A stretch of DNA of 64,000 bases, filler included, from Sanchytrium tribonematis (Eukaryota), in assembly GCA_018985235.1 (NCBI GenBank). It is 6 parts of 6 records of this genome, joined end to end, with 100 filler letters (N's around TTAATTAATTAA, not from the genome) between each part and the next. Parts side by side here need not be neighbours in the genome. Positions count along the whole stretch, not along the records: positions 52,161 to 58,850 come from JADGIG010000503.1; 5 more parts are not named here. One strand, given 5' to 3'. Positions 31,788 through 57,506 of the stretch are shown here, piece after piece. Each line of letters opens with the position of its first letter. Within the stretch, counting starts at the first letter, position 1. Below the pieces are notes generated by a model. The model was not told where the DNA came from, made no database searches, and was given only the letters and a program-made list of their open reading frames with translations. The position numbers and the translations under genes are program-made.

Positions 31788-34700
31788 CTGAAGACGAAGA
31801 AGGCGCTCTCTCAAATCGTTAGAGGATTTTTTGTCTGCTTTAGACGTAGTTTCCGCAGGAGTTATATCTTCCTCGGCTTTTGAGGATTCGCGATCTTCTG
31901 ATTCCTTTTCTTCCAAATCAGCTGACTGCAAATCTTCTTTTATGGAAGGATCCTTCTCATCTTGCGACCTTGAGACTTCCTCCTCGACATCTTCGTTTTC
32001 ATCATGGCTTTCACGCGCCTGTGGCTCATTCTGAGTTTCAATGATTTCCACATGAGCTGAAGCCTCTTCTGTCTCGCTGACAATTTCTTTGCCCAAGCTG
32101 ATTGTAGGAGATTTCAAGTTGGGAGATTCAGGTTCAGGTGTTTCCACTGCAGGAGAGGGCTTTACCACTTTGATTTTTTCTTCAAGATCTCTGACTTTTT
32201 TCTCTGCATTAACTTTTGCTATTCGAACACCTCCCAGTTCTTCCCTCAAGTCTTCAATCTCGTGGATCAGAGCTTTATTTTTGTTTTGCATGTTTTGAAG
32301 CATAGCACCACTGTTTTTGATTTTTTTTGAGAGATCATTCTTCTCGTACGTTATACTTTCAAATTTTTTTTGGATGTCCTCATACTTGTGTCTCAATTCA
32401 TTCAAGTCTTCTTTCTGTGACTCTTGTGGATTATTTTTCACCAAGTAGCTCCTTGATCGATATTCCTGAATTTGAGACTGTAACTCTGTCACTTGGTTTT
32501 GGTATTCTTCTAATTGCTGTTGCAATTTCCGTTCCATGCGAGGAACATTGAGAAGTTGATTTTCAAGCTCCAGTATTTTGTTTCTCTGTTGATGCATGTC
32601 ATGGGTGAGTTTTTGCTTATCATTTCTGAGAGATTGATTCGCATCCATAAGACTGGAATTTAATTCAAATTTGACGGGTGGTAAGATTTCCGGAGCTTTG
32701 TTGCGAAGATTTTTCACTTCCATCTGAAGAGTATCATTTTGATTCCTCAAGAGCTTGATAATATCATTTTCATTATTGTTTTTCAAAATTGTATCTAATT
32801 GAAAAATTTGAGTGTTTTTCTCCTGAATTTCAGTTTCCAATGTAGTAATCTTGGCATTCAGTTTGTTTAAATTTGATTTCAGGCTTAAAGATTCACTTTG
32901 TAATTTTTTGTTCAACTCTAACTCTTTCGCCAACTGCATTATATGTTGACGATTTTGATCGTTTGAATTTTGCAAGTCAAGCTTAAGAGAGTCAATCATT
33001 CCAATATTATCATTAAGTTGCTGCTGTATGGATTTGATTGTGAGTTCAAAATGGGATTTTTCGCTTCGCAACATCGAAATAGTTGCTTTTGATTCGTTTT
33101 CCTTTGAATTTTTTTCAGTTACTAATTTCTTCAATAGATTTTGCTGACTTTCCAAATCAGCCATTGCTTTTGAATGTTGATTTGAAAGGGTATCATTTTC
33201 TACTGTCAATTCATCAATGTTTTTCTGTAAAGTTGCCTTAATTTGGTCGAAATGTTTCGAAAGCTGGTCTTGAGTGGTGGATTGATCGGTCAATAACTTT
33301 TGAAGTTCATCGACCTCGTTTTGTCTCTGCTTTAAAGTAGCTCGAACCTCATTCACTTCACTTCTACGTTATAATGGAATACCTTTTAATTTCTAACAAA
33401 GCATCATATTTCTCTTGAATTGTAGCATCCTCTGAATCTGCCAGCATCTTGACTTTTTCCTCCGCAGCGTACAGATCATTACTTAATCGAGAATTAGTAG
33501 TTTGTAGATCCTCTTTTTCAGACTGTAGCTGAAGATATTTCATTTGCTTTGCCTGCAGTTCATTGTTAAGTTGCTGATATTGTGAATTCACCTTATTCAA
33601 TTGCTGTTTTAACTTAACATGATCCTGTAGCACCTGACTATTAATAGAGTCTTTTTCTGTTTGTAATACATTAAGTTTAGTTAAAAGCTCTTTTCTAGTT
33701 TCACTAATTTCAATATCTTTCTTCTCTAACTTGCTTTTCAATTGATTAAGCAATTGATTTTGCTCATTGTCTTTCATTTTCATAGATTTCTGGTATTGTA
33801 ATAGCTCTTGATTTTTTTGCTGAATTTCATTCGTCAAGGATTCATAATGTTTAACTCTGTTTTCCAGATTTGTTATTTCCAACTGGAGATCAATATTTAA
33901 TTGCTTCAAATGCGAAAATTGAGTCAGCTCATCTTCAAATTGGTCTTTTTGAGTTTTTGAATGTTCTTGTAATTCGATTTGGTGATCTAGCAACTCCTTT
34001 ATTTGTTGGTCCTTTTGTTTATTAATGTTTTGCAAACTTTTAAGATTTACGACAGTGCTATCATAAGATGTTTGCATTGTTTGTTTTTCCAGCATCAACA
34101 GCTGCAATTTGTGGTCTTTCGCCTTCAATTCTCTATCATGTATATGTTGCAATTCTGTGACCTGTTGAGTGGTTGTCTGCAATTGCGATTGCAAATTTTG
34201 AAGCTCTTCATTGTTTTTTAGCTTTTCATTTAATAATTTTAAATCTTTTAGTTCTTTGGAAATTGAAATATTGATATTTTTAAGCTCGGAATAGCTCGTG
34301 TTAAAATTTTCGACTTGAGCCCGCAGATCATTGATGATTTTCTCGTATTTGACCATTTTTTCTTTAGGATTGCCACCATATTGTTGCTGCAAGTTAGAGA
34401 CTTTTTCATTTAATTTGTACAATGTCGAGATAAGATTTTGATTTTGATCTTGTAATTCTTTGATATTTTCAAACGTAATTAAATCTAACTTATTTAAGCT
34501 GCTATCTTCATGCTCCATTGTTTGATATTTGACCATAGAAGGATGATTAGTGGATGAATGAGTAGTATTGAGCAAATGTTGTACTTGAAGACCAAGATCT
34601 GTATTTAACTTCTTCAAAACAACGTAATTACTTTGCAACTTGTTTAATTCCAAATCACGAGTATGACAAGCTCGCTGAAGAGAATCTGATTCTTTTTGCT

Positions 34701-36141: not shown

Positions 36142-38209
36142 ATGAATATTCGGCAATTTCCAACCAGAATTAAATGGTATAATTGCGGACCCACAACTTA
36201 CGATCACAGCCACATTGGTCACGCCAGAAATTATGTCTGTATAGATATCATAAGAAGAATTTTGCTGCACTATAATCATCATATAATTATGCTTCAAAAT
36301 GTCACAGACATTGATGACAAAATTATCAATAGAGGAAGACACATATTTTTAGTTAATTTATTCTGGGCTAAACCCAATAAGGAATCAATGCATTTAGCCC
36401 TTGATAAGTATATTAAAGATTATTTTAATTGCACAAACCAGGAATATCCTGTAAAATCAAATGAAATGCTCAAAATAGCTACTGATATAGAAGAAAAGGC
36501 CAAAATTGAAATGAGGATTGTTGCAGTCAAAAAGTTCCAGGAACATATGAATGGAACAAGCAACTCTGCCAATGATGAAGTGTATGAAAACACATTTGAC
36601 GTACTTGCCTATTATCTTGACTCTGTAGCCACTGAAACTGATTTGAAATCTTATAGTGATGATCACAAGCAATTTACTGATATGAGTAGATATTGGGAAA
36701 ATGAATATAACAAAGATATGGAAACATTAAATGTCATGCCACCTAATATAATAACACGTGCGACAGAATATATTGGACCTATTATCGAACACATCAATTT
36801 GATCAAAAAAAATGGATACGCTTATGAAAAAAACAATAGTGTTTACTTTGATGTGGTAAAGTTTAATAAAGAGCATGGTTACAGCAAATTGGAACCTCAG
36901 CATGTTACAGACACATTTGGGAAAGAAGACACCACTGGTGAGAAAAAGCACCTCGAAGACTTTGCGCTATGGAAAGCAAGTAAAAGTGGAGAACCCTCTT
37001 GGGAATCCCCATTTGGCATTGGTCGACCTGGATGGCATATTGAATGCTCAGCTATGGCTTGTCATTTTTTTAAAACCCTCGATATTCACAGTGGAGGTAT
37101 TGATTTATTGTTTCCTCATCATACCAATGAATGTGCTCAGGCAGAAGCCGCATATTTGCAGAAGTGGTGCGAAAAATTTATCCACATTGGCCATTTGCAT
37201 ATTAAAGGCGCCAAAATGAGCAAAAGTCTAAAAAATTTTATCACTATTAAAGACATGCTTAAAAAGTATACTCCGCAGCAATTTCGATTATTATGTTTAA
37301 TGCAGCCATGGCAAGGTACACTGGATTACCAAGAGGAGACGATGAAAGAAGTTTCAAGTGCTGAAAGCACCATTAAAAACTTTTTATTGAACGTTAAAGC
37401 TAAACTTTTGGAGCGAAATACCTGTATGCCACCCTTTAGCCAACTCGAACTAGATTTTTTAGAAAAAATGCGGATGTTGCAGGAAAGTACAGACAATAAT
37501 TTACAAGAATTAAACACTCACCATGTTATCCAGGATGTACTCAGGATCATAAACGAGGCTAATAGCCATTCTCTGGACGCGAGGATTTTACAATTAATAG
37601 CAGAGTACATTACCCAGATCTTTAAAATTTTGGGACTCATAAATTCCAACTTGAAAGTCGATTACAGCTATCAAGAGTCAAGCGTATTATTATTTAATGT
37701 AGAATGAGGCTGATGTGCTCCCGTTTGCTCAAGTTTTGAGCCAGTTCAGAGATAAGGTTCGGTCTTCCGCAATTGAAAGTAAAGATAAACAACTTTTACA
37801 AATTTGTGACGATCTTAGAGATAAAGATTGCGTAGACATTGGACTCAAATTGGATGATGTTGGTGGTGGAAAGGCGTTGATAAAGCTTGTAAACAAAGAA
37901 GACCTTAAAAAAGAAATGCAAATGAAATTGGAAGCCACTAAACTGAAAGACTTGGAGAGGTTGAAACAGAAAGAAGAAAAGCAAAAAAAAGAATTGGAGA
38001 AATTATTGAAAGGCAAGCTTGCGCCGCACGAATTATTCAGTACAGGAGAGCGGAGTAAAGAATTTTCTAAATGGGATGAAACTGGTTTTCCTACGCATGA
38101 TGCATCAGGTGAAGAGTTGAGCAAGGCTAAAACTAAGAAATTAAAGAAAGAATATGACAATCAATTCAAACTCAACGAAAAATATTTAAATTATTTGAAA
38201 TCTCAATAA
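36142..38209 (+). CDS. CARS: Cysteinyl-tRNA synthetase; exons 36142-37683 and 37703-38209 (682 aa)
   Basis: WYNCGPT, HIGH, DFALWK, GRPGWHIECS and KMSKS; exon 2 carries FRDKVR and CDDLRD. Confidence 0.97.
37684..37702 (+). other. 19-nt spliceosomal intron in CysRS
   Basis: gtattattatttaatgtag; phase 0, gives an in-frame fusion. Confidence 0.92.
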
Positions 38210-45378: not shown

Positions 45379-45403
45379 TCAATCATCGTACTTTATAGTT
45401 CAT

Positions 45404-46545
45404 TTATTGTGGTGGTGTCGCATTCAACATTTTATATTGAGCAGATAAAAACATCCCTTTAGATTTAGCCATTTTACAAAACCAATCTTTGAAAATGTAA
45501 AATTGAATAAAAATTTGAGCTCTTCCCCCTAAATCAATTAAAATTTACCTGTGGGTCCCAATGTCACCAAAATGGCTTTTGGATCAGATGCACTTTCCGA
45601 TTTCATAGCCTTGTTATTCACTAAAGCAGGAATATTCTTTGCAAGCAATCCAACTTGTGGTCCAATTTGCACGACTGATTTGTATTTAGAGAAATTACAA
45701 CAATCCCCAATTGCAAAGATATTCGGATGATTCTCTACTTGCAAGGTCCCCTTTACTTTCACAAATCCACGATCATCTAAAATATTCAATGGTTTCAAAA
45801 AATCCGTGTTTGGCTTTGAAAATCCAATAGCAGAAATAATCAACCCACATTCAATTTTAACACCTTTATCAGTCACGATATGATACAATCCACTATTCCA
45901 TCCTTTCTCAACTGGATTTGGGATGTAAGTATTCAAATTTGCCACTTTATCACCCAAATGAAAAACAACGCCTTTCTTTACCAATTCTTGCTTCAATTCA
46001 TGACTTAATTTAGGTGAATAGGGTCCAGGGACTAAAGAATCACCAGATGAGACCACTGTAATCTTCTTATGGGGATATTTATGCAATATTTCCCCAATAG
46101 TCTCCAAACTTGTTGCACCAGCACCCACAAATAAAATATTTGTCGTTTCTCGAATCACATTTGACAATTCATTCATAGCAACCAATGACTCTTTCGCAGT
46201 CGATTTAATGGTCTTAAAAGGGGCTGCATAAGACATGCCAGTCGCAATCACCAAAATATCAAAATCAATCTGTTCCCCATTTTGACACACAACTTGCTTC
46301 TCACTCACCTGAGTCGCAATGGTATGCACCACACGTCCCTTGGTAATCAATTGATCAAATGGAATAAACATTTTAGGTGCAAATGTTGGATCTACAACCC
46401 CTCTCACAGATGCCACATTCCAATAATAATGATCTAATTTTGAGATTAATATGATTTCTACCTTGTCTTTTAATGATTTCTGTACTTGTTGAATCACTTG
46501 TACTGCTGCTACTCCACCTCCAATAATCACTAATTTGAGAGCCAT
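45404..46545 (-). CDS. AIF/AMID (FSP1-like) FAD-dependent oxidoreductase; exons 46545-45549 and 45528-45404 (373 aa)
   Basis: IIGGGVAA, LVIATG, VGAGATSLE and IFAIGD; spliced C-terminus TLGPTGG..AKSKGMF. Confidence 0.9.
45529..45548 (-). other. 20-nt spliceosomal intron
   Basis: gtaaattttaattgatttag; removal adds the family-like KSKxxF tail. Confidence 0.85.
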
Positions 46546-46870
46546 GAAAATCTACTTGTTTCGGGGGAATGAACGAGATGATTCGAAATAAACACGTGCT
46601 GGATGTCATGAAATCGACGTCTACATGTGATTGAAATGTAATTGATAAATATTTATTCTTGACAAATTCCGTCTATGTCGTAACCTGTTTTACAGTGATT
46701 AACACATTTTATTATTGCCAATCATAAATTTAAATTAAATGTAATTTGATTGGCAATTGATTCATCAAATATTCTACAAATAGTGAATTCATTGAATGCC
46801 AAATGCCATTTGTTAATCCTTCTCCAAAACCATGTTGTTCATTTTACAATAGATACAAGCATTTATTTCA

Positions 46871-47283
46871 AATCATTTGTGTTATTTCATGGTCATTTAT
46901 AGTCATTCTCACATTAATTATTTTATTTAAGTAAATGTATTTATGAATATTGCCGTGCATTTGTATTATAAATGATTAATTCGCACAAGATATCACAATT
47001 ATTTTTGTTATTCTTGCACAAGGACGTGTTGATTCATTTGATTTGGTAATCATGAAATTAAATACATGATTGGTCAAATATCAATCACTAGTCTGTAAAT
47101 AGTTCTTCCAATGATTTCGTGCGTCTGTATGTCTGCAGTGAATCCAATGTTTTGTGATGCGTGTCATTCGTCTGTAGAGTCACAAAACAAGATCAAATCA
47201 CGTCAAACTACATTTAGAATCATTGCAGTCATTTCATGGTCATTGATAGTCGTATTCACATTAATACTATTTTACAAATAAAT
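46871..47283 (+). repeat. Imperfect direct repeat pair of about 65 nt (46871-46936 and 47218-47283)
   Basis: aatcatt..atttcatggtcattKatagtc..tcacattaat..tatttta..taaat occurs twice, 347 nt apart. Confidence 0.75.
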
Positions 47284-47306
47284 CCCAATATTTTTTAAAA
47301 CTTCAA

Positions 47307-47855
47307 ATGATCTCCTTTGAAATTTACAATGATTTACCAAATCAATTCAAACAAACCAAATTAACAGATAAAACCATTCAAACATATACAAAATGGATTA
47401 GAAGATATATGACATTCTGTGATACAAAGCATTTAGATTATGGCACATCTCATAATAAAATGATGGAAACTGTCAAGGATAAAAAACAACGCATGCAAAT
47501 TAGACGTGCTATTGGGTATTTTTATCAATTTGCAGGGGTTGAAGATGTGAATAATCCATGTAAAATCACTGGATATCAATTGGTAGCAAATCAAGAGAAT
47601 AAACAATATCAATCCTTTTTAAATCAAAAAGAGGATGCAATGCAAGTCATTGATGATAAAATGGATCAAAATAATAGTAAACCCGTTAAACCAGTTGAGC
47701 CAGTCGTGATTAAACCAATACCACAACTTGAAAAAGTCGTGGAAGCATTTGAATTTGATGATGATCACGAGAGTATTCGGCAACAAAAATTAAACATGTA
47801 TAAATATGGAATCAAGAAATTAAGTGAATTAATGCAAATGGTGCATGAATTATAA
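47307..47855 (+). CDS. Protein with an N-terminal tyrosine-recombinase core-binding (SAM-like) domain and no catalytic domain
   Basis: LTDKTIQTYTKWIRRYMTFC..QRMQIRRAIGYFY..NNPC resembles integrase SAM-like N-termini. Confidence 0.55.
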   Translation: MISFEIYNDLPNQFKQTKLTDKTIQTYTKWIRRYMTFCDTKHLDYGTSHNKMMETVKDKKQRMQIRRAIGYFYQFAGVEDVNNPCKITGYQLVANQENKQYQSFLNQKEDAMQVIDDKMDQNNSKPVKPVEPVVIKPIPQLEKVVEAFEFDDDHESIRQQKLNMYKYGIKKLSELMQMVHEL

Positions 47856-47869
47856 ATAAATACAATTTA

Positions 47870-48702
47870 TTATCCCCAAATCAATTTTAGATTCTTTTCA
47901 AGTGGCACCGTGTCAAATCGAATGCCCATTTGTTGTAGCACTCTCTTGTAATATTCAACCCGATTTGGAGTATTTAGAGCCGATTTAAATTTAATCAGTT
48001 CAATTAATTGTAATTTGGTCAATTCAGGATGAGAATAAAGTAGAACTTTGAATGTTTCAATAGATGACATGGTGATGGGTTGATTTAGCCATTGATCAAA
48101 TTGAATTCGGACGGGTCTAATCCAAATGGCGTAGATTTCTTTATTTGTGAAATGTCGAGTCATTTCTTCACGATTTTTGAGTGGATACTTTTTCATTTTA
48201 TCAATCATGATTTGCTTTAAATCTAGATCACCAATTGAATTCAAATAATTTCTAGTCTTTTCTAACTGATCTGGATTGTACAAATCTGCTATTTTTGCCA
48301 TATTCTTTAAAACCAGTAAATTAAAACCAGTTGGATTAGTTGCATAAATAACGTACAATTCACGCAACACGCCATTCATTACAAAAAGATTGTCATACCA
48401 TGCTGCTAATACACTCTCAAAATATAAATCCATCTCACTGACAAAATGGCATTTTCAAGTGATTTTAAACGGGATTTGACATCAGCACTATTTTTCAATG
48501 CAATCTGCTTCTCTGGATCATCATCAGTGTACTGATAGACTGATTGATAGTGGGTGTCTACCATCTTTAGAAATAGTTCTTCATCTAGTGGCGCAATGAT
48601 TTGTTTAATTTTTGCTGTTTTTAAAAGATGGGGGTTGAAATCGGGCTCATCCGTCGCTTCTCTTTTCAATGCAAGTAGTAGAATAATGAAAAACATTGAC
48701 AT
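47870..48702 (-). CDS. Putative secreted orphan protein split into two overlapping frames (48406-48702 and 47870-48433)
   Basis: Short hydrophobic N-terminus MFFIILLLA. The frames overlap by 28 nt with no consensus tiny intron, so this is a frameshift or two genes. Confidence 0.45.
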
Positions 48703-48941
48703 GAAGGAGTTGGAATACAAAAATGTACATAGTTGTACTGGTAGCACATGTGTTATTTGTACATTCTTCTAGCGAATCAAGTAGCTCAAGGTGAAAGAGT
48801 CACTACTTTAATGTTGATGCTTTCGAGTGTGAGGTATTCTGTTGCTTCCATCTCGTGATTATTTCAATTTCTCATGTGCCATTTTTGATTGGTTTAAAAC
48901 ACGTGTTTTTAAGATTTCTCAATTCTCAACGACTCCTTAAA

Positions 48942-49806
48942 ATGGCAACTGAATGCAATGAACCATTAAATGTAGAATCATATCAATATAAAATGCATTT
49001 AGCATCTATATTTATTGTATTTGGAATTAGTTTATTGGGTACAATGATTCCAGTTGTTTTTAAGCAAGTGGTGCAACAACATCAATTTGGATTAAATATG
49101 TTGAAATTATTTGGTTGTGGGGTGTTGTTGGCTACTGCGGTGATTCATATGATTGTGCCATCTTTGAAAGCATTTGAAAATGAATGTTTGCCTGATTTAT
49201 TAAGGAATTATGAGTCATATGGGGGTGTATTCATATTGGCAGGGTTGTTTAGTACGCATTTGGTGCAGATCATGGCTAAACATTATCATTATAAGGATTA
49301 TGAGATATCTGAGGGACATCAACATGAAACAAATCAGAAAATAGTGGTTTATTTGATAGAATTGGGTGTTGCATCTCATTCTATACTAATCGGGATCTTC
49401 TTGGGTGTTTCTATTGAAGAATTTTATTCATTGTTGATTGCATTGAGTTTCCATCAGTTTTTTGAGGGAATGGCACTATCTTCTATTGTGATAAGCAACA
49501 CTATTAGTAGAAGAATGAGATATACAATGATTTTATTCTACAGCGCGACAACTTCAATTGTAAAAATGACTTATTTAGGGAATTTTAATTGGAATTGCAA
49601 TTCATTCTTCATTTCAAGAGAATCAGCAAAGTTCATTGGTGATTCAAAGTGTATTAGAGGCATTTACAGGTGGTATCTTACTATATGATGGACTTGTGAA
49701 TATATTAGGGGCACATTTTCAAATTTGTGATAAATTAAGAAATCAAATTTGTGAGATACTATGCTTATGGGCAGGTGCTGCTGTCATGGCAGTCATTGGA
49801 AACTAG
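48942..49806 (+). CDS. ZIP-family zinc/iron transporter (Zrt1-like); exons 48942-49559 and 49579-49806
   Basis: KLFGCGVLLATAVIHM, ELGVASHS, ALSFHQFFEG, TTSI|GILIG and GILLY. Confidence 0.93.
49560..49578 (+). other. 19-nt spliceosomal intron in the ZIP transporter
   Basis: gtaaaaatgacttatttag; removal restores the last TM helices. Confidence 0.93.
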
Positions 49807-49889
49807 GCATAACATACAAATAAACGCGCTATATTCTATATTTTGTCAATAAATGTCAACAAAAAGCCACCTAGAGCCATTTTACAAAA

Positions 49890-50708
49890 ATGATTTCTAG
49901 TTTTATTCCCCTCGTCATTTTTGTGATTTTAGACACTGCATACTTTGCATTTACAGCAAATAAAGTCAATAAATACAAGCAACAATCTACAGATTCAGAT
50001 ATTAAGGATATTATGAATTACATTTTAATGGTTCTGGGAACTGGAATTATTGGATTTTACTTGCTTAGCATTGATTTATTGAATGAATTAGGGTTCTATG
50101 GTGATGAGTTGATGTATGTCGTGCTATTTTTATCATTTATGGCCAGTGCAATCAGTTTATACAAATCTTCCTCAATTTACTTCAACGCGTATGCTCACGT
50201 TGGAAATGCATCTATTGGAAAGAAATTGATGTTTGGATATATTCCATTCTTTGCTGTTCCTGCTTTGTTATTGTTGGTATTGAATGATTCAGTTGCTGAA
50301 CTAGAGATTTTGTTGGGTTTGGTGATTATTGGATTTTATACGTGGAATTTCATCAGTGATACTATCATGGATGCATTATGTTATAGTAGATTAAGACATG
50401 CTCAGTATCAGATTGGCAGTGACATTGCAGCTTCAAGAGATGCTCAAAATGAAGTCAAAAAAGTTTGGGTTTGGAAAATTATAGTTGCGATTTGTTCCTT
50501 CTTCTTATTCATGGGATTGGCTATTATTAGTGAATATAGCACATTGACATACTTTACCGTATTAAGTGTCGGATTTTTATATCCTACAAGTGCAAATTTA
50601 CAAATTCATAGATTTCAATTAGTCGATAAAATGCTTAAAATCCCTCTACATTCATTAGATGAGATCCAAGCTACTGAACAAACGACAGAATTACATGTGA
50701 TTGCTTAA
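49890..50708 (+). CDS. Multi-pass (about 7 TM) membrane protein of unknown function
   Basis: 272-aa ORF with about seven hydrophobic segments; AATAAA follows the stop. Confidence 0.6.
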   Translation: MISSFIPLVIFVILDTAYFAFTANKVNKYKQQSTDSDIKDIMNYILMVLGTGIIGFYLLSIDLLNELGFYGDELMYVVLFLSFMASAISLYKSSSIYFNAYAHVGNASIGKKLMFGYIPFFAVPALLLLVLNDSVAELEILLGLVIIGFYTWNFISDTIMDALCYSRLRHAQYQIGSDIAASRDAQNEVKKVWVWKIIVAICSFFLFMGLAIISEYSTLTYFTVLSVGFLYPTSANLQIHRFQLVDKMLKIPLHSLDEIQATEQTTELHVIA

Positions 50709-50715
50709 AATAAAC

Positions 50716-51036
50716 TTACTTTTTATTATCTGTAAACCAGTGATCTTCATTTTGAATTTTAAGAAATTCTTGACGAATGCGTTCTGCTTTATTTCCGTAT
50801 GCAAAATCCACATTATAAGCAAATACGATTGATAAGACACCAAATGGTACTAATGCCACTCGTGGTGCTCTGTTTCCAGCTAATAATAACCCAGTTCCAA
50901 CAGCAGCCCATGTTCCTCCAATCCACAAGCATAAATCTCTAGAATTGGCCATAGTCATTGCGACCATAGTTTTTTGTTGTTTTTCCATGCTTTTACGCTG
51001 CATTTCTGCCATATTTCCAGAAATCAAATTTCCCAT
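50716..51036 (-). CDS. PLGRKT/DUF2368-like small membrane protein
   Basis: Starts MG; AMTMANSRD..LVPF..FAYNVDFAYG..ERIR matches PLGRKT AMQIAWSRE..LVP..YQYDLGYG..ERM. Confidence 0.75.
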   Translation of the reverse strand: MGNLISGNMAEMQRKSMEKQQKTMVAMTMANSRDLCLWIGGTWAAVGTGLLLAGNRAPRVALVPFGVLSIVFAYNVDFAYGNKAERIRQEFLKIQNEDHWFTDNKK

Positions 51037-51080
51037 CTTACCAATGTTTCACTTAAAAGCATCACAAAATCAAATCAAAT

Positions 51081-51740
51081 TTATTTTAAATCCATGTAAA
51101 TGATCACAATCAATGTCATAAAACTCAATAATGATAAAGCAGGATAAAATATCATCAATGGATCACTATTTGACGCATCAAATGTATGTTTAGGTAGTAA
51201 TAACTGAGTATCAAATAATTCATTCGTAAAATCATTTAAAAGAAACATGTCTAAATTCTCAACTATTTTTTAGATTCAAAATCTCATTGGACCTCTCAGC
51301 GACTCTTGTTTCAAAAATGATTGAAATTCATAAATATCAAGTAAATCAAAAACCAAGTGCCATTTATGAAAATCATTGTAAAATCGAAATTGCATTATCA
51401 ATTAATTGATAATTTAACCATTAATTGATAATTTGATCAAATCATCATTACTGAAATTTTGTATTTTAAAACAATCAGGCTATGCATTTATATTGGAATC
51501 TCTTCATCAAATCACTCCTAATATTCTTTGGATATCATCATGAATTATTATAATTTCCATGTGTGGGATTAATAGCATATGAAAAAGAAACACCAATCGC
51601 ATGTCCAAAGATTGTAAATCATATTCACGTAAAAGTAGTGTAAAAAATGATAAATATGTGAAGAAGAACAAGAACAAGAAGGAAATGGGAAGAGCTATGG
51701 CGGAATCGTATTTGAATAGACGATAATAAATGAAATTCAA
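51081..51740 (-). pseudogene. Possible decayed membrane-protein gene (fragments 51507-51740 and 51081-51248)
   Basis: Two short hydrophobic ORFs on one strand, separated by a stop-rich stretch with a local 15-nt duplication (attaattgataattt at 51401 and 51420). Confidence 0.3.
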
Positions 51741-51861
51741 ATTCGTAGGTTTTCTAGGTTCTTCAAGAAAAATTCAGACTATTTTATTGGATCTTAGAAC
51801 TGATGTTGCTGTGAGTCCTGTGACTCAAATCAAAACAGATCAAGGACATTTGTGTGAAAAG

Positions 51862-52060
51862 ATGAACTTAATTTTTATTCTACTAATTTTTGCAGCTTTG
51901 CGAGATGATACTCCAAATAATGAAGGTTTTGAAGAGCATTATAATCGTTTAAAACAATTTTATACTGATACGAATATGCCACTAAATGCATTAAATCATT
52001 TAATGGAATCTAATGATTTAGAATTTAAAAAGGAGGCATTAAAGTGGTTATCTCATAAAA
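51862..52060 (+). CDS. Putative secreted orphan protein, 3' truncated
   Basis: Starts MNLIFILLIFA; the frame is open to the spacer. Confidence 0.5.
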
Positions 52061-52160
52061 NNNNNNNNNNNNNNNNNNNNNNNNNNNNNNNNNNNNNNNN
52101 NNNNTTAATTAATTAANNNNNNNNNNNNNNNNNNNNNNNNNNNNNNNNNNNNNNNNNNNN
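52061..52160. other. Artificial contig-joining spacer
   Basis: N44-TTAATTAATTAA-N44. Confidence 0.98.
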
Positions 52161-52677
52161 AAATAAAAAACCAAGACAGACACATCAAAACTCCATGGGT
52201 CGTTTGAAGAGCTGAGCTGTAGTTATCCAAAGCACTGAAATCTCCATTTTCTAAATTCATTTTGAAACTACCACTCAAATCATGATACGGTATAGCTGCA
52301 CTTTCATCAGCAGAATTAATTTTATCAACACCCCAGCACCATATAAAAGAATTAACGGTATTGATTGTTGGCTTGTTGGGCTCTAACAATGTTCTAGAAA
52401 GCTGTGCTGTGACTCGATTGTTACTAGTTCCGGAATTTAAAAGATTCCAGCTATTTTTTTGACTCGCAATATCGTGACCGGCTCCTTTTCTATTGGTAAC
52501 GACAACTTTGTCATTGTTTTTCCAGATAATAATCATATCAGAGCCATCCATATTAGCCCCGGTCCCAAAAGCTCCAAAACCAAGTGTGGAATCATAGTCT
52601 ATGGTGATATTAACGTAAGTATCAACTTTAAGCGCCTTTATGCATAATTTTTTGTCGCTAGTGCAGAAGGTTGACAT
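52161..52677 (-). CDS. DOMON plus cytochrome b561 (ferric/cupric reductase-like) protein, 3' truncated
   Basis: FGAFGTGANMDGSDMIIIW (heme Met) and IPYH (heme His), then the first b561 helix THGVLMCLSW. Confidence 0.85.
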
Positions 52678-52913
52678 GAAACAATGTTTTTGGCTTTAAA
52701 GATCGAATTTTGTGAGAACGAAAAGGATTTTTCTGTTTAAAGCTGAAATTTAACATTACTAGTCAAATTTGATTTTTAAAAACTCCGAGGATCCCAATCT
52801 CAAAACGTATGTCACATCGCAAGCCATGTGCTCGCTTTGTAGCCATCTTATTGGTTCAAGTAATTATAAAACATACGCACATGCACATAGCCTTTTGAGA
52901 GATTTTTGATTCG

Positions 52914-53562
52914 ATGTTATTTTCCTTGTATTTGACAATCTATGGTCATGTCACCGCCAATCCGAATTCTGGGCCTGCTAAGGGGTATTTCGTGTCGTAC
53001 TTTCGTATTGGGCATGCCTGCACCGCGTCTGAAAGTACCACATCAGTTGAAATTCAAATTCCCGATGGTATCTATACTGCTAAGCCTAAGTTCACTGCTG
53101 GTTGGACTTATAACGTGACTTCGGTAGCTCTGGATAAACCAATTTCGAATGGAGAATCAACTATCACTTCCAAGGTGACTAAAGTGTTATTTACAAGTGC
53201 TGCTGGTCTCCCTAACGATGCTTTTGAAGATCTAGGATTAAGTTTCCAACTGCCTGATGCGGCTGGATCGGCCTTGTTTTTCAAAACAACACAATTTTGT
53301 ACGTCAAACACGACCGCATGGGTCAATATTCCCGCAAATAATGACCCTGCGCAATGGGAGACAACCCCAAAACCAGCGCCATATATTAAGGTATTGGCAG
53401 CTGAAGGCTCAAGCTCTGCTGACACTACTGCTGCAACTCATGATCCAACAGTATTGGGAATTGGAGTCGCTGGTATTATTTATTAATATAGGATTAGTCA
53501 TAGGAGTTATTGCTATCTCAATAGCAAGTGTTTTGGCAATTAAATTGAAAAAGAAGAATTAG
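52914..53562 (+). CDS. YcnI/DUF1775 copper-binding protein with C-terminal TM anchor; exons 52914-53472 and 53492-53562 (209 aa)
   Basis: Signal peptide then HVT.NP; FRIGHAC, TT.V.I.IP.G, KP....GW, F.T.Q.C, W..IP and PAP; TM helix followed by KLKKK. Confidence 0.85.
53473..53491 (+). other. 19-nt spliceosomal intron in the YcnI-like gene
   Basis: gtattatttattaatatag; removal completes the TM helix. Confidence 0.88.
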
Positions 53563-53701
53563 CAATAAATTTTGGAGATTAATTTTATTTAAAATCAGTA
53601 ATACTATATTGAGAGATGTGAAATTATAGATAGAAAAACACACAGTTCATGCCTCTGGAGAATTATAAAGTCAATTTGACGAAATACAATTTATTAGATA
53701 T

Positions 53702-54124
53702 TTATTCGTGGCATTCCACAATTTGTTGGGTGGATGGAAATATGATATGTGCCAAAACCTTGGCCACAACAATAGTAATTAGCAAAGTCCCGTTAAATGA
53801 CATCATGACCAACATCAAAAGACCGTTGATTAGCATCTTGATAAATAATAGACTAGGATTTAAGTAACAATCGTATTTTGGTGCAAGTTTACATAGATCC
53901 GGAATGTGAATGCTAAATACTTCATTTACGAATGAAAGAAAACCTACAATAAAAATTGAAGCTATAAATAATTCGACAGTAGTGACATGCCAAAATTCAA
54001 AAAGTATGTAAAAATCTGTAGTTTTGAAGTTTAGGAACATTCCCATTGCACCCATTGATGAGCTGTCCGACGATGAACCGCTATTTCCTCCCATATTGCC
54101 CATGTTTCCCATATCGTGATCCAT
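53702..54124 (-). CDS. Ctr-family copper transporter
   Basis: Met-rich N-terminus MDHDMGNMGNM..MGAMGM, ILFEFW, and the MxxxM motif MLVMMSFN. Confidence 0.9.
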   Translation of the reverse strand: MDHDMGNMGNMGGNSGSSSDSSSMGAMGMFLNFKTTDFYILFEFWHVTTVELFIASIFIVGFLSFVNEVFSIHIPDLCKLAPKYDCYLNPSLLFIKMLINGLLMLVMMSFNGTLLITIVVAKVLAHIIFPSTQQIVECHE

Positions 54125-54240
54125 TCTTGCGTTTCAGTTTCTCTAATTCCCAAATATGACAAGCAACTCCAAATCTTAGCAAAGATCAAACTCAGATGGA
54201 AATTCATTTCAAAGAAATATTTATTCTGTAATTCTCAGTT

Positions 54241-54747
54241 CTATTTTTTGTTCTTTAATTTAAGGCAAAATCGTTTATATTTTTGAAAAAAAGGCCTCGT
54301 TATAGGTTGATGCGTATTAGAAAAGTATGACTTCATATCTTCTTTTGCACATGCGAATACTAGTGCCTCCAATTTTCTATTCTCCGTAGCTTTTTTTTCT
54401 ACTTTGACTGCATAAATACCAGATTTGTTTTTGGATATAAATATTGTAACATTGATTTTTCTTCGCTTGAAGCTACCAGTTGCTTCATTTTCTACACTCA
54501 AAGAGTCATACTTTCTCTTTCTGCTAAATGGTACAATTTCGACCTCAGAATTGAGCTGTTTTTGTGAGGTTTGAGAGTACTTTGGAAAATGCTTCACTTT
54601 CACATGACATTTTGCTGTTTTGGACAGTCTAAATTTGCGGTTGGCTACTTTGTTTGTAGATTTAATAGGCATAAAGTAAGGTTTGGTTGGATACCTGATT
54701 TTCCTTAAATTCATTTTCAATGAAAAGTCGTAGTTTTTTACTCTCAT
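54241..54747 (-). CDS. Hypothetical basic protein
   Basis: 168-aa Lys/Arg-rich ORF with no recognised motif. Confidence 0.4.
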   Translation of the reverse strand: MRVKNYDFSLKMNLRKIRYPTKPYFMPIKSTNKVANRKFRLSKTAKCHVKVKHFPKYSQTSQKQLNSEVEIVPFSRKRKYDSLSVENEATGSFKRRKINVTIFISKNKSGIYAVKVEKKATENRKLEALVFACAKEDMKSYFSNTHQPITRPFFQKYKRFCLKLKNKK

Positions 54748-55072
54748 GGAAAGACGGCAATTTTAGAAATTTAGTTTCAAATAATTAAAGACTGATAGTA
54801 CTCTTTTCAAAGAATATTGAAAATGGGACCATTTGTAAGCTCCGTGACTACTTCGAATTAATAATTTCAGTCATATGACACAAAGTATGAGTACTACTAA
54901 AAGTAATACAATATATAGTCGTAAAATTTCGAATAAATTATTACAGCAAGATTTATTTTCAAATTGTTATTAGTAAAATTGTTAATAAGAAGCCGACAGA
55001 TTGATTTCAAACTAACTACCTAAAAAGAAATCAGCAATATTTATAATGTCAAAATAACTAAGCCACACAGTA

Positions 55073-57466
55073 ATGATCATCTTACTTTTCCTGAGTCTAT
55101 TTTCTACAGTATTCTCACTACATGGGACGCGATTAAAGAAAAGAGATCCTACTATAGATGTCTCATTATCTCAGCAAGAATTAAATAACTTCAATTCTCA
55201 ACCTGGAAGTGCTCAGTTTTGGGAACAATCGGGATTTGTTGCTATTTCCAATGCTAGACAAGCTAAACCTTTTGATTATTCAAAGTATGTTGACAGTAAA
55301 AACAGTGTGGGTTTAAGTGCGTTGACTCAAGATTATCCAGATATAAGCAGCTTCCTTGGCGTTTGTATCTTTGGAGCAATTGTGTGTGCAATTGGTAGTA
55401 TAGTAATGTGTGCTTGTTGCGTTATGCGTGAACCTCGTCAAATCGATCCAGACGATGTTTCCACGAAAAAAAAGATTTTCTTCATAGTCTTGTTGTTTAT
55501 TGTCAGTATGTTGTCCATTTTCTTCATATTTTTGACACTTTCTAGTCTCAATGATTTTGTCACTGGAATGAAAAATGCAAACGCGGCTACTGGATCCATA
55601 GTAACAAGTGGTACATCTATGCTAAAATCTTCACAAAACGACTTGAGCGCGATCTTGAAATCCCAATCCGTAGACACTTCTATATATAGTGAATTTATGG
55701 CTAATATCACTGGGAAAATCCAGAACATGAATAGCAGAACATCTGATGATGTTTTAAATATTGACATGTACATGGATGACTACAAAAATAGTGCGTTGAA
55801 ACTAAAAGTCATTGGAGATTGGATTATTGGAAATAGTTCATTTATTTACAATGGTCGAGAAGATCTGTCAGAGAATTTCAACTCTACAATGTTCAAACTT
55901 AACGAATTAAATGCCAATTCGTTTGATTTTAACGTGCCGGACGGTCAAGGTGGATTTTACGTCAACACGTATCAATTGAGAGCTCCTAAGCCTTTTGTTT
56001 ACTTTCAAACAGCAAATTTGTACTATTTTGATACTTTTGACAACTCCAGTGCATTACAATTAGCAACTTGTCCAAATATATACAACGTTCACGTTCCTAA
56101 AGAAATGCTTGGAGCCGCAATCAAATCTAAAATTGCCAATTTGACATTGAAAGCTAATGTGTCATTGTCAAGTACAAATTCGAGTATTTATGACATTTAT
56201 AAAACAGCTCAATCTACGTTGCAGTACCTGTTTTCTAATGGAACAAGCACAAATAATGTTGCTGCTCACTACAGTGCATTTTCCGCCGCCAGCACAGCTT
56301 ACACGACCACTGTCAACACGCAAACCACTTTAATTTATGTTTATTTTGGTATACTGTTCTTTCTCCTGATTTCGATGGTATTAGCTAGCAGTGTAAAAAT
56401 TCCAAAATTAGCCATGGGAACTCTTTGTGGATTTTTGTTTTTAATTATCCTGTGCTTTGTTTTTTCATTTGTGTACTATATTTTAGCTTTTATGGCTGGA
56501 GAAAATTGCGCAAATTTGAATTCAAATTTCGAAGCTCTTAAATTGGTGAACCCGACTGTTGCTGACTACACGCAATCTGGATTGTCTGCCAATGACTTGT
56601 GTGCTAGAAATTTAAGTGTTTCAGAGGTGCTTCAAGATCCAAGCATCAGTGCGCTACTTCCAGATCAATTCAATCAAACCACATTCAATATTTCCAGCTT
56701 GATTGCTAATTTGACAGCAGCCAAGAACCTTAGTTTTATTGAATTTCAAAATGAAATCAAGGCTGCCGCATTCAACGATCAAGAGTTATCGACATTTTTA
56801 AGTATATTTCAAACTGTAGATCCGCAACCACTGAATGCAACAGGAAAGTTGATGGGAGAACTAAAATGGAATATTAACACTTCCTTGTTCAATGGATTCA
56901 CCACCTTGAATAATACAGTTTATTACACGGAAAGTGACATTAAAGATATCAGTTCATCTCAGGGACCAACCAATTCGGCAGACGACTTGGGCAATTGGAA
57001 ATTAAGAGTCACTCCGCGCTATCAAGCTGTCAAAAACTTTAAAAACACATTTGAGAATTTTAACACCAGTAGATCCTATGTGTATATCAATTCTGATGCG
57101 GTCTTTCCTTTGTTAGATCACATTCTCAACACATCATATTTTGCAAATATGTTATATCCAAATGTAACCAATAACTACGCACTAGTTTTGTTAGATGCTC
57201 AAGCAGAATCACCAAAATATTTCAAGACCCTCATGGCCAATTTGACAAAAGTATTGGAAAGCCAGCTTGAGAAGGGATTTAAAAGCAACAACTGTCACAG
57301 CATTGGGTTAGGTGTAGATGCGATGAAAACTTCATTTTGCTCTGTAGCACTGTACGGATTAAATGGAATGTGGCTTTCATTTGTTGTCTTGGGATTTTGT
57401 TTAATTGTACAAGTTGCCTGCATATTTACAGTTTATTTGTATTTAAATCCAGCAATTATTAAATAA
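55073..57466 (+). CDS. Prominin-like five-TM glycoprotein
   Basis: Signal peptide, TM1 followed by CACC, TM2, a large loop rich in N-glycosylation sites, TM3-4, a second loop, then NC..FC..LNGMW before TM5. Confidence 0.7.
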   Translation: MIILLFLSLFSTVFSLHGTRLKKRDPTIDVSLSQQELNNFNSQPGSAQFWEQSGFVAISNARQAKPFDYSKYVDSKNSVGLSALTQDYPDISSFLGVCIFGAIVCAIGSIVMCACCVMREPRQIDPDDVSTKKKIFFIVLLFIVSMLSIFFIFLTLSSLNDFVTGMKNANAATGSIVTSGTSMLKSSQNDLSAILKSQSVDTSIYSEFMANITGKIQNMNSRTSDDVLNIDMYMDDYKNSALKLKVIGDWIIGNSSFIYNGREDLSENFNSTMFKLNELNANSFDFNVPDGQGGFYVNTYQLRAPKPFVYFQTANLYYFDTFDNSSALQLATCPNIYNVHVPKEMLGAAIKSKIANLTLKANVSLSSTNSSIYDIYKTAQSTLQYLFSNGTSTNNVAAHYSAFSAASTAYTTTVNTQTTLIYVYFGILFFLLISMVLASSVKIPKLAMGTLCGFLFLIILCFVFSFVYYILAFMAGENCANLNSNFEALKLVNPTVADYTQSGLSANDLCARNLSVSEVLQDPSISALLPDQFNQTTFNISSLIANLTAAKNLSFIEFQNEIKAAAFNDQELSTFLSIFQTVDPQPLNATGKLMGELKWNINTSLFNGFTTLNNTVYYTESDIKDISSSQGPTNSADDLGNWKLRVTPRYQAVKNFKNTFENFNTSRSYVYINSDAVFPLLDHILNTSYFANMLYPNVTNNYALVLLDAQAESPKYFKTLMANLTKVLESQLEKGFKSNNCHSIGLGVDAMKTSFCSVALYGLNGMWLSFVVLGFCLIVQVACIFTVYLYLNPAIIK

Positions 57467-57506
57467 GATAAAATATGAAGAAAATAATAAATGTTAAATT
57501 ATTAGT

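What the first reader, a model, noticed from the sequence alone, without database searches (positions are those of the whole stretch)
52161..54124. Candidate copper-acquisition cluster: DOMON-b561 reductase, YcnI copper-binding protein and Ctr importer
Seen: three adjacent genes on one contig. The DOMON/cytochrome b561 gene and the YcnI-like gene diverge from a shared 236-bp interval, and the Ctr gene converges on YcnI. Established: Ctr proteins import Cu(I) and need a surface reductase; DOMON-b561 proteins are transmembrane reductases; YcnI/DUF1775 binds Cu(II) through an N-terminal His and lies in the Bacillus ycnKJI copper-uptake operon. Inference: a capture-reduce-import module built from a bacterial-type part and eukaryotic parts. 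I know of no description of it in eukaryotes.
Basis: partly seen in the sequence, partly recalled or inferred. Interest (0 to 1): 0.82.

Follow-up and report, generated by a model that had tools for sequence, protein, structure and literature searches.

The report
Fungal copper-capture, reductase and importer neighbours
A short contig of a sanchytrid-like zoosporic fungus carries, side by side, genes for a membrane-anchored YcnI-type protein predicted to bind copper, a DOMON-cytochrome b561 reductase (cut off by the contig end) and a Ctr copper channel; they likely act together in copper uptake, but only the first two appear to stay linked in related genomes.

Summary
On contig 52161-58850 a DOMON gene (52162-52677, minus) and a YcnI/DUF1775 gene (52914-53562, plus) diverge from a 236-bp interval, and a Ctr gene (53702-54124, minus) converges on YcnI.

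Two caveats:
- The contig end cuts the DOMON gene at codon 172, so its b561 domain is known only from three full-length relatives.
- The YcnI gene has a 19-nt intron that joins a C-terminal membrane anchor.

The YcnI-like protein matches Pfam DUF1775. Its model matches solved YcnI structures. His12 sits right after a short leader. The Glu ligand of B. subtilis YcnI is absent; an invariant H-x-C motif stands there instead.

The family is not confined to bacteria. A well-supported clade holds proteins of chytrids, Blastocladiomycota, Monoblepharidomycota, Mucoromycota, Zoopagomycota and oomycetes. Most have surface-anchor-like tails. I found no paper on them.

Linkage is only partly conserved:
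- The reductase and YcnI genes share a contig in two related genomes, but not in Amoeboradix.
- Ctr relatives lie on other contigs.
- One chytrid-like metagenome contig shows neither neighbour.

No expression data were available. The capture-reduce-import reading is plausible and resembles Bim1-Ctr1, but it is unproven. I rate it a new variant of a known kind, of moderate interest.

The parts
52162..52677 (-). First 172 codons of a CYBDOM (DOMON + cytochrome b561) gene. It holds a CDH-cyt-type DOMON domain and the start of b561 helix 1, and is cut by the contig end. No signal peptide is seen at its N-terminus.
   Evidence: Pfam PF16010 34.5 bits and PF03351 26 bits. It is 55-63% identical over 100% of its length to P0008, P0009 and P0010, which carry PF03188 b561 at E 4e-11 to 2e-8. 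The spacer Ns start at 52160.
52678..52913 (.). 236-bp interval between the divergent start codons of the DOMON and YcnI-like genes; presumed shared upstream region.
   Evidence: Coordinates. It shares no k-mer of 8 or more with the Ctr upstream region, and no Mac1-type element was found.
52914..53472 (+). Exon 1 of the YcnI/DUF1775-like gene: an 11-residue leader, then His12 and the whole DUF1775 domain plus a Ser/Thr/Ala-rich linker.
   Evidence: PF07987 E 8.4e-33. AF2 model pLDDT 90.4. Foldseek top hits are 3esm and B. subtilis YcnI 7me6/8um6/7mek, TM 0.79-0.86 normalised by target. H12 and H34 are present in 81 of 81 aligned rows.
53473..53491 (+). 19-nt GT..AG intron, phase 1.
   Evidence: The window and four relatives all break frame right after 'VAG', whereas P0006 runs straight on into a TM anchor. 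The ORF-bridging scan lists this element. Five other 19-nt introns in the window are verified by contiguous Pfam coordinates.
53492..53562 (+). Exon 2 of the YcnI-like gene: transmembrane anchor LVIGVIAISIASVLAI, basic tail KLKKKN, and the stop codon.
   Evidence: Translation. The equivalent TM segment of P0006 scores 2.65 on the Kyte-Doolittle scale.
53702..54124 (-). Ctr-family copper channel gene of 140 aa with no intron needed. It has a Met/His-rich N-terminus, three TM helices, MLVMM in TM2 and ECHE at the C-terminus.
   Evidence: PF04145 30.9 bits. Three hydrophobic segments. Relatives P0012-P0014 are 56-71% identical, and the motifs are conserved in alignment A2.

Best explanation
Three adjacent genes of a sanchytrid-like fungus encode a membrane-anchored YcnI/DUF1775 ectoprotein, the N-terminal part of a DOMON-cytochrome b561 (CYBDOM) protein and a small Ctr channel, and they likely form a copper-uptake neighbourhood.

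The steps of the proposed mechanism are inferred:
1. The YcnI-like domain would capture Cu(II) at its N-terminal His12. The invariant His34 of an H-x-C motif and Trp136 would probably help.
2. The CYBDOM protein would carry electrons from cytosolic ascorbate through its haems and reduce free or YcnI-bound Cu(II).
3. Cu(I) would then enter through Ctr.

The same scheme would work on the plasma membrane or, facing the lumen, on a vacuolar or endosomal membrane. In the second case it would mirror the yeast Fre6-Ctr2 arrangement, which I recall and did not check.

Shown here: gene identities, domain make-up, fold, conserved residues, anchor and arrangement. Inferred: copper binding, reduction, hand-over, co-regulation and cellular location.
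For: Gene identities:
- Pfam matches for all three genes.
- Full-length relatives of the DOMON gene carry b561 with four conserved His and about five TM helices. This is the architecture reported for Arabidopsis HYP1, which reduces Fe(III) and Cu(II) with ascorbate (passages of PMC10784544).

YcnI-like protein:
- The model (pLDDT 90.4) is most similar to 3esm and to B. subtilis YcnI structures.
- His12 follows the leader in 81 of 81 aligned rows. His34 and Gln127 are also 81 of 81. Cys36, Cys129 and Trp136 are 80 of 81.
- Cys36 and Cys129 are both missing in the same four rows of the 33-row alignment, which fits a disulfide.
- B. subtilis YcnI binds Cu(II) at its N-terminal His with nanomolar affinity (passages of PMC8424229).
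- The anchor is a TM helix with a basic tail.

Ctr: Met-rich N-terminus, three TM helices and MxxxM.

Linkage:
- The arrangement is head-to-head across 236 bp.
On 2737 nt the two genes must be neighbours.

Precedent: Cryptococcus Bim1/Cbi1 is a GPI-anchored histidine-brace copper protein that works with Ctr1 (passages of PMC9258870).
Against: Linkage is weak outside a narrow group.
- In Amoeboradix gromovi the YcnI-like, DOMON-b561 and Ctr relatives are on NODE_83, NODE_124 and NODE_34.
- The Ctr relatives of the other genomes are on contigs of 2306 and 594 nt, not on the YcnI contigs.
- The one chytrid-like metagenome contig (L001, 3246 nt) has a zf-UBP/RING gene and an unknown secreted protein beside its YcnI-like gene.
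- General synteny between these close genomes was not measured. A pair kept in two relatives may simply reflect recent common descent.

Other points against:
- The Glu ligand of B. subtilis YcnI is not conserved.
- No signal peptide is visible on the DOMON gene in any of the four orthologues.
- The b561 part of the window's own gene is missing.
- The 236-bp interval and the Ctr upstream region share no motif.
- No expression data exist for this organism in the tools.
- CYBDOM proteins are better documented as ferric reductases (abstracts of PMC10784552 and PMC10784544).
Confidence: 0.45

Rival explanations
1. Chance neighbourhood. Each gene does its own job: Ctr imports copper, CYBDOM is a general ferric/cupric or ascorbate-recycling reductase, and the YcnI-like protein is a surface copper protein. 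They sit together only because the genome is compact, and the pair persists in two relatives only because those genomes diverged recently.
For: - The three relatives lie on three separate contigs in Amoeboradix.
- Ctr relatives are never on a YcnI contig.
- L001 lacks both neighbours.
- Genes are densely packed: six genes lie in 6.7 kb.
- No shared upstream motif was found.
Against: - Two of the roughly nine thousand genes reported for a sanchytrid genome (Table 1 of PMC8371127) that plausibly act on extracellular copper flank a transmembrane reductase.
- The head-to-head pair recurs on a 2737-nt and a 22754-nt contig, in relatives whose YcnI proteins are only 67-70% identical.
- Earlier unchecked notes of this scan report YcnI next to membrane haem reductases in unrelated bacteria. 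These are leads only.
Confidence: 0.3
2. Redox pair rather than uptake relay. The CDH-cyt-type DOMON domain would feed electrons to the copper centre of the YcnI-like protein, which would itself be a redox-active surface enzyme. It could be LPMO-like or peroxide-generating, for example acting on the wall of the algal host. Ctr would be an unrelated neighbour.
For: - The DOMON domain scores best with PF16010, the cellobiose dehydrogenase cytochrome domain. From my own knowledge, that domain reduces LPMO copper.
- The clade keeps His12, His34 and Gln127 invariant. This recalls the His-brace-plus-Gln/Glu arrangement of LPMOs, which I recall and did not test.
- The pair, but not Ctr, is the conserved part.
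- Sanchytrids are algal parasites (abstract of PMC8371127).
Against: - The fold is YcnI-like, not LPMO-like.
- B. subtilis YcnI is described as a binding and exchange protein, not an enzyme (abstract of PMC12362106).
- Bim1, the closest fungal analogue, lacks redox activity (passages of PMC9258870).
- No carbohydrate-binding module was seen.
- The family also occurs in saprotrophic Mucoromycota.
Confidence: 0.1
3. Copper buffer. [quoted passage not shown] This is the role proposed for B. subtilis YcnI relative to YcnJ. It would protect the cell rather than feed Ctr.
For: [quoted passage not shown]
- Hyaloraphidium has three tandem DUF1775 domains in one protein, which fits a capacity role.
Against: - Loss of YcnI in B. 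subtilis gives a growth defect under copper limitation (same abstract).
- Here the neighbours are an importer and a reductase, not efflux or detoxification genes.
Confidence: 0.1

Closest known systems
Bacillus subtilis YcnI (DUF1775) of the ycnKJI operon; structures 7MEK, 7ME6, 8UM6; Nocardia farcinica 3ESM
   Same: - Same Pfam family and same fold.
- The mature N-terminus is predicted to be His.
- A conserved Trp lies in the C-terminal part.
- A single C-terminal membrane anchor places the domain outside the cytoplasm.
   Different: - Glu50 of the mono-histidine brace is absent. It is replaced by an invariant H-x-C motif with a partner Cys.
- The partner genes are eukaryotic (CYBDOM, Ctr), not CopC-CopD (YcnJ) and YcnK.
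- The gene has a spliceosomal intron.
- The protein belongs to a clade of fungal and oomycete sequences.
Cryptococcus neoformans Bim1/Cbi1 (LPMO-like X325) with Ctr1
   Same: It works alike in principle. Both are cell-surface-anchored copper proteins with an N-terminal His, proposed to pass copper to a Ctr channel (passages of PMC9258870). Most fungal YcnI-like proteins end in a Ser/Thr-rich linker and a hydrophobic tail without basic residues, which looks like a GPI signal (my reading).
   Different: - The fold and family are unrelated (DUF1775 versus X325).
- The window's protein has a TM anchor, not a GPI anchor.
- No physical or genetic link to Ctr is shown here.
- The Bim1 system includes no dedicated neighbouring reductase, as far as the passages I read say.
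Plant CYBDOM reductases HYP1 and CRR (Arabidopsis)
   Same: DOMON plus a b561 domain of about five TM helices. The DOMON domain is outside, ascorbate is the donor, and Cu(II) as well as Fe(III) are accepted (passages of PMC10784544). The Atlas places relative P0008 nearest to CYBDOM clusters, with scores of 0.92-0.94.
   Different: - The window holds only the DOMON part.
- No signal peptide was found.
- The documented physiological role in plants is iron, not copper.
Cellobiose dehydrogenase cytochrome domain (CDH-cyt, AA8) reducing LPMO copper
   Same: The DOMON domain scores above threshold for PF16010. Haem-to-copper electron transfer to a protein with an N-terminal His is the established job of that domain (my own knowledge).
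   Different: Here the domain is tethered to a membrane b561 rather than to a flavin dehydrogenase, and the putative acceptor has a YcnI fold.
Yeast Fre1/Fre2 with Ctr1/Ctr3, and Fre6 with Ctr2
   Same: The logic is the same: reduce Cu(II), then import Cu(I) through Ctr (recalled; the references appear in the reference list of PMC12113139).
   Different: - The yeast reductases are NOX-type flavocytochromes, not CYBDOM proteins.
- Those systems have no capture protein.
- Their genes are not clustered.

Membership tests
YcnI / DUF1775 (PF07987) | Match to the family profile above the curated cut-off | tested here: met
   114.2 bits against a cut-off of 25, profile positions 1-146 of 146.
YcnI / DUF1775 (PF07987) | YcnI beta-sandwich fold | tested here: met
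   The AF2 model (pLDDT 90.4) has as Foldseek ranks 1-6 the chains 3esm, 7me6 (two chains), 8um6 (two chains) and 7mek, with E 1e-9 to 5e-7 and TM 0.79-0.86 by target length.
YcnI / DUF1775 (PF07987) | His as first residue of the mature protein (His27 in B. subtilis) | tested here: met
   His12 is present in 81 of 81 rows and is preceded by Ala, Gly or Ser at position -1. Cleavage itself is predicted, not shown.
YcnI / DUF1775 (PF07987) | Glu ligand (Glu50 in B. subtilis) of the mono-histidine brace | tested here: not met
   The position 23 residues after the His is Ala35 here and Gly in most rows. 'PTE' of 3esm aligns to 'GHA'. About a third of bacterial DUF1775 proteins also lack the Glu (passage of PMC8424229).
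YcnI / DUF1775 (PF07987) | Conserved Trp next to the copper (Trp137 in B. subtilis) | tested here: inconclusive
   Trp136 is present in 80 of 81 rows. I obtained no residue-level alignment to the B. subtilis chain, because phmmer and the small profile did not reach it.
YcnI / DUF1775 (PF07987) | Genomic partner CopC-CopD (YcnJ) or PCuAC | tested here: not met
   Neither is found on the contig. The bacterial loci retrieved do show CopC neighbours and PCuAC fusions.
YcnI / DUF1775 (PF07987) | Cu(II) binding | not testable with these tools
   This needs EPR, ITC or ICP-MS on the mature ectodomain.
CYBDOM (DOMON + cytochrome b561) | Haem-type DOMON / CDH-cyt domain | tested here: met
   PF16010 scores 34.5 bits against a cut-off of 27. 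PF03351 scores 26 bits, below its cut-off of 32.7. Candidate haem ligands Met43 and His132 are conserved in 4 of 4 orthologues. Their role as ligands is my reading.
CYBDOM (DOMON + cytochrome b561) | b561 domain with four haem-ligand His | tested here: inconclusive
   The contig end removes it in the window. In 3 of 3 full-length relatives PF03188 matches at E 4e-11 to 2e-8, and four His are conserved in helices 1-4.
CYBDOM (DOMON + cytochrome b561) | Signal peptide that places the DOMON domain outside | tested here: not met
   All four orthologues start M-S/P-x-x-C-T with no hydrophobic leader, and no convincing upstream exon was found. Lys and Arg counts of the loops in P0008 fit a DOMON-out topology.
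Ctr copper transporter (PF04145) | Profile match and three TM helices | tested here: met
   30.9 bits against a cut-off of 25.3, although only profile positions 1-43 align. Three hydrophobic segments at residues 52-70, 92-110 and 112-130.
Ctr copper transporter (PF04145) | Met-rich ectodomain and MxxxM in TM2 (motifs recalled from the literature) | tested here: met
   MDHDMGNMGNMGG and MGAMGM lie before TM1, and MLVMM lies in TM2. These are conserved in 4 of 4 rows of A2.
Ctr copper transporter (PF04145) | GxxxG in TM3 (motif recalled) | tested here: not met
   TM3 reads GTLLITIVVAKVLAH, with A-K-V-L-A in place of a GxxxG motif.
Bim1/Cbi1 (X325 LPMO-like) | Sequence or fold relationship to X325/LPMO | tested here: not met
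   No LPMO or X325 chain appears among the Foldseek matches listed. The resemblance is functional only.

The most novel reading that the evidence does not exclude
YcnI-like proteins are an undescribed, ancient class of eukaryotic cell-surface copper proteins in early-diverging fungi and oomycetes. In this lineage their copper centre (N-terminal His plus a second invariant His) is reduced directly by the haem of the neighbouring CYBDOM protein's CDH-cyt-type DOMON domain. That would be a membrane-tethered counterpart of CDH-to-LPMO electron transfer, releasing Cu(I) to Ctr.
Probability: 0.2. Interest if true: 0.8.

Novelty: new variant of a known kind. Interest (0 to 1): 0.55.

Why it matters
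How eukaryotic cells take Cu(II) from the environment and present Cu(I) to Ctr channels is known in detail only for yeast-type Fre reductases and, recently, for the Bim1/Cbi1-Ctr1 pair of Cryptococcus.

This locus points to a second, unrelated family of anchored copper proteins with an N-terminal His. The family is spread through chytrids, Blastocladiomycota, Monoblepharidomycota, Mucoromycota, Zoopagomycota and oomycetes. I found no publication on it: 10 papers hold 'DUF1775', and none of the 7 distinct works listed is about a eukaryotic member.

The neighbourhood gives this family a testable function and a candidate redox partner. It also suggests a physiological cupric-reductase role for a CYBDOM protein.

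The H-x-C subgroup, which lacks the Glu ligand, has an unresolved copper site even in bacteria.

Tried and rejected
- **Whole genome.** None is held, so I could compute no genome-wide count of copper genes and no chance estimate.
- **Earlier notes.** Nothing by place or by sequence, and nothing for the seven-word query.
- **PDB by sequence.** The single protein and the six-row profile found only weak hits: a collagen IV NC1 fusion, a disulfide isomerase, and 3esm at E 0.15. The link to YcnI structures came from the fold search instead.
- **Metagenome scans.**
  - Alignment A1 matched 190 pattern stretches, but none was confirmed.
  - Alignment A7 gave 28 loci. By GC content and the gene contexts I sampled, 27 look bacterial; I ran Pfam on 5 of these 27 plus L001. 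One looks eukaryotic.
- **Sequencing runs.** One DNA holder was found and no RNA holder is listed. Its contigs, laid on the contig, covered only 55203-58848. The hole over the three genes says nothing either way.
- **Upstream motifs.** No shared k-mer of 8 or more, and no TTTGC[TG]C[AG] element.
- **DOMON signal peptide.** I read all three upstream frames by eye and found no convincing signal-peptide exon.
- **Longer YcnI leader.** I considered one made by a 42-nt intron (52860-52901). I dropped it because five relatives start at the same short leader.
- **Complex prediction (DOMON with the YcnI ectodomain).** Nothing was folded.
- **Literature.** Searches for 'cytochrome b561' + DOMON + LPMO (0 papers) and AA8 + b561 (4 irrelevant papers) gave nothing.
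- **Intron length scan.** The first ORF-bridging scan was too strict and missed known cases. The second has a high background: 15 GT..AG candidates at 19 nt against 4-10 in five control dinucleotide pairs.
Full report
**What is in the sequence.** The window is a chain of contigs joined by N44-TTAATTAATTAA-N44 spacers. The finding lies on contig 52161-58850. This contig is eukaryotic and AT-rich, with about 0.32-0.38 GC. Besides the three genes it carries an unassigned 168-codon ORF, an unassigned 797-aa membrane glycoprotein and a nuclear NDUFS2 gene.
- ORF 52162-52677 (minus) matches the cellobiose dehydrogenase cytochrome domain (PF16010, 34.5 bits) and, more weakly, DOMON.
- ORF 52914-53486 (plus) matches DUF1775 at E 8.4e-33.
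- ORF 53702-54124 (minus) matches Ctr.
- The two start codons are 236 bp apart, and YcnI and Ctr converge.
- tblastn found no further copy of any of the three genes in the window.

**Two corrections to the anatomy.** First, the contig end cuts the DOMON gene after codon 172, just as the first b561 helix begins. The b561 domain is therefore inferred from three full-length relatives, which are 55-63% identical over all 172 residues. They carry PF03188, four conserved His and about five hydrophobic helices. Second, the YcnI gene continues beyond 53486. A 19-nt GT..AG intron (53473-53491) joins '...GVAG' to an exon encoding LVIGVIAISIASVLAIKLKKKN, which is a transmembrane anchor with a basic tail. 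Four relatives break frame at the same point, and the intron-less relative P0006 runs straight into an equivalent anchor.

**The YcnI-like protein.** An AlphaFold model built on 81 aligned sequences has a mean pLDDT of 90.4. Its six best Foldseek matches in the PDB are 3esm and chains of B. subtilis YcnI (7me6, 8um6, 7mek), with TM 0.79-0.86 by target length.

The 81-row alignment holds the window's protein, five close relatives and 75 of the hits P0016-P0100. I left out the three-domain P0015 and ten rows from P0016-P0100 (P0018, P0037, P0060, P0066, P0067, P0071, P0081, P0082, P0087, P0092) because they had extra domains, long extensions or truncations. In it:
- His12, His34 and Gln127 are invariant.
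- Cys36, Cys129 and Trp136 are present in 80 of 81 rows.

These rows are the best hits to a profile of this clade, so the conservation describes a subfamily and not all of DUF1775.

His12 follows an 11-14-residue leader with a small residue at position -1, as in bacterial YcnI. The Glu ligand of B. subtilis YcnI (His+23) is Ala here, and 'PTE' of 3esm aligns to 'GHA'. Damle et al. note that a sizeable subset of DUF1775 proteins keeps the His and Trp but not the Glu (passage of PMC8424229). This protein belongs to that subset.

In the 33-row alignment the two Cys are missing together in the same four rows, which fits a disulfide that ties the His34 loop to the strand before Trp136. That His34 is a second copper ligand is my inference.

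**Where the family occurs.** A profile search of 1.84 billion representatives gave 1482 hits at E of 1e-3 or better.

I looked up 25 sequences in three calls. The named eukaryotes among them are:
- Amoeboradix gromovi
- Hyaloraphidium curvatum (three tandem domains)
- Quaeritorhiza haematococci
- Allomyces javanicus
- Calcarisporiella thermophila
- Umbelopsis isabellina
- Basidiobolus ranarum
- Phlyctochytrium bullatum
- Two Aphanomyces species

The rest were unnamed, or named only 'uncharacterized protein YcnI'. The Atlas lists a 92-member eukaryotic cluster, mostly Mucoromycota, auto-named 'YncI copper-binding domain-containing protein'.

Two trees place the eukaryotic rows together:
- A FastTree of 156 rows puts all named eukaryotes in one 36-row clade with support 96.
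- An IQ-TREE quick run on 73 of those rows gives a 38-row clade with SH-aLRT 97. It holds all 15 rows I marked as named or eukaryote-like, plus 23 unnamed rows, some of which look bacterial.

The window's protein sits in a long-branched six-row group with Amoeboradix (support 100). So this is an old eukaryotic family and not a recent import into this genome. The host-type intron agrees with that. The gene's GC content (0.41-0.44) is above the contig's level.

Most fungal members end in a Ser/Thr-rich linker and a hydrophobic tail without basic residues, which I read as GPI signals. The sanchytrid-like group has a TM anchor instead.

**Literature.** Ten papers in the library hold 'DUF1775', and 50 hold that word or 'YcnI'. 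None of the titles and abstracts listed concerns a eukaryotic member. Damle et al. contains 'eukaryot' zero times.

- The YcnI-like proteins P0002 and P0003 (70% and 67% identical) and the DOMON-b561 proteins P0008 and P0009 are each recorded on one contig. I take this to mean that they share contigs. On 2737 nt they must be neighbours, but I could not see the DNA.
- In Amoeboradix gromovi the three relatives are on NODE_83, NODE_124 and NODE_34.
- The other Ctr relatives are on contigs of 2306 and 594 nt. The 594-nt contig is too short to say anything.
- Of 28 metagenome loci found with a chytrid-type alignment, only L001 looks eukaryotic. Its YcnI-like gene is flanked by a zf-UBP/RING gene and an unknown secreted protein.
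- The bacterial loci I sampled show the known copper partners: a CopC neighbour, PCuAC fusions and TonB-dependent receptors.

In sum, the reductase-YcnI pair is kept in 2 of 3 related genomes. The Ctr link is seen only here, and deeper conservation is untested. General synteny among these genomes was not measured, so the kept pair is modest evidence.

**Mechanism.** I commit to copper uptake, at about 45%.
- B. subtilis YcnI binds Cu(II) at its N-terminal His with nanomolar affinity and exchanges it with the importer's CopC domain.
- The plant CYBDOM protein HYP1 has a five-helix b561 domain and an outward-facing DOMON domain. It moves electrons from ascorbate across the membrane and reduces Cu(II) as well as Fe(III).
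- Ctr channels carry Cu(I), which is established knowledge.
- A tethered capture protein, a transmembrane reductase and a Ctr channel therefore make a coherent chain. The nearest described eukaryotic parallel is Bim1/Cbi1 with Ctr1.

Copper binding, reduction, hand-over, co-regulation and the membrane concerned are all inferred. The missing signal peptide on the DOMON gene and the missing b561 part in the window are open points.

**Rivals.**
- A chance neighbourhood in a compact genome, about 30%.
- A CYBDOM-YcnI redox pair doing oxidative chemistry, about 10%.
- A copper-buffer role, about 10%.

**Verdict.** I rate the finding a new variant of a known kind: a Bim1-like logic built on a YcnI fold, with a CYBDOM neighbour. 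Its main value is that it gives an unstudied fungal and oomycete protein family a testable copper function.

**In passing.** The genome uses uniform 19-nt introns. Five more are verified by contiguous Pfam coordinates across the gap.

Noticed in passing
window 18069-18087(-), 8718-8736(-), 57738-57756(-), 49560-49578(+), 25178-25196(+), 53473-53491(+): This genome has spliceosomal introns of exactly 19 nt (GT..AG, AT-rich, mostly ending TTTAG or GTAG).

Five are verified by Pfam profile coordinates that run on across the gap:
- RNR small chain: 1-167 | 168-281
- TOR kinase: 2-197 | 201-240
- NDUFS2: 1-194 | 196-271
- ZIP: 165-249 | 251-322
- p24: 2-148 | 153-181

The sixth is in the YcnI gene. 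Introns this short are known to me from ciliates and nucleomorphs, not from fungi. The sanchytrid genome paper used ORF-based gene calls and has the word 'intron' only in its reference list. Gene sets built from plain ORFs for such genomes will truncate many proteins.
   Followed up: partly
window 6775-6793(+), 17309-17327(+), 37684-37702(+), 33364-33382(-): Four further 19-nt GT..AG elements bridge long ORFs in different frames. They are candidate introns and were not checked against protein families.
   Followed up: no
window 55073-57466(+) and 54241-54747(-): A 797-aa protein with a signal-like start, several hydrophobic segments and many N-x-S/T sites, and a basic 168-aa ORF. Neither has any Pfam match. 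Both lie just downstream of the Ctr gene.
   Followed up: no
window 48795-49803(+), on the neighbouring contig 45379-52060: A ZIP-family metal transporter gene with a 19-nt intron. It lies on a different contig, so its nearness to the copper genes in the window is an artefact of concatenation.
   Followed up: partly
P0015 (Hyaloraphidium curvatum KAI9006511.1): One protein carries three tandem DUF1775 domains. Each starts with R-H-V-[ST]-A, and the protein ends in a GPI-like tail. Only the first His can be N-terminal, so either the later domains bind metal differently or the protein is processed.
   Followed up: no
L014 3036-4693 (likewise L012, L015, L017, L018, L021): Low-GC bacterial metagenome contigs repeat a three-gene set: a 163-aa ORF with no Pfam match, a 163-aa DUF1775 protein and a 203-aa CopC protein. 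In L014 these are followed on the other strand by an AhpC/TSA (weak SCO1-like) thiol protein. The unassigned 163-aa partner may be another copper protein.
   Followed up: no
window 52800-53400: The YcnI-like gene is richer in G+C (0.41-0.44) than its surroundings (0.32-0.36). This could reflect its Ala/Gly/Thr/Pro-rich composition or its history. I did not resolve which.
   Followed up: no
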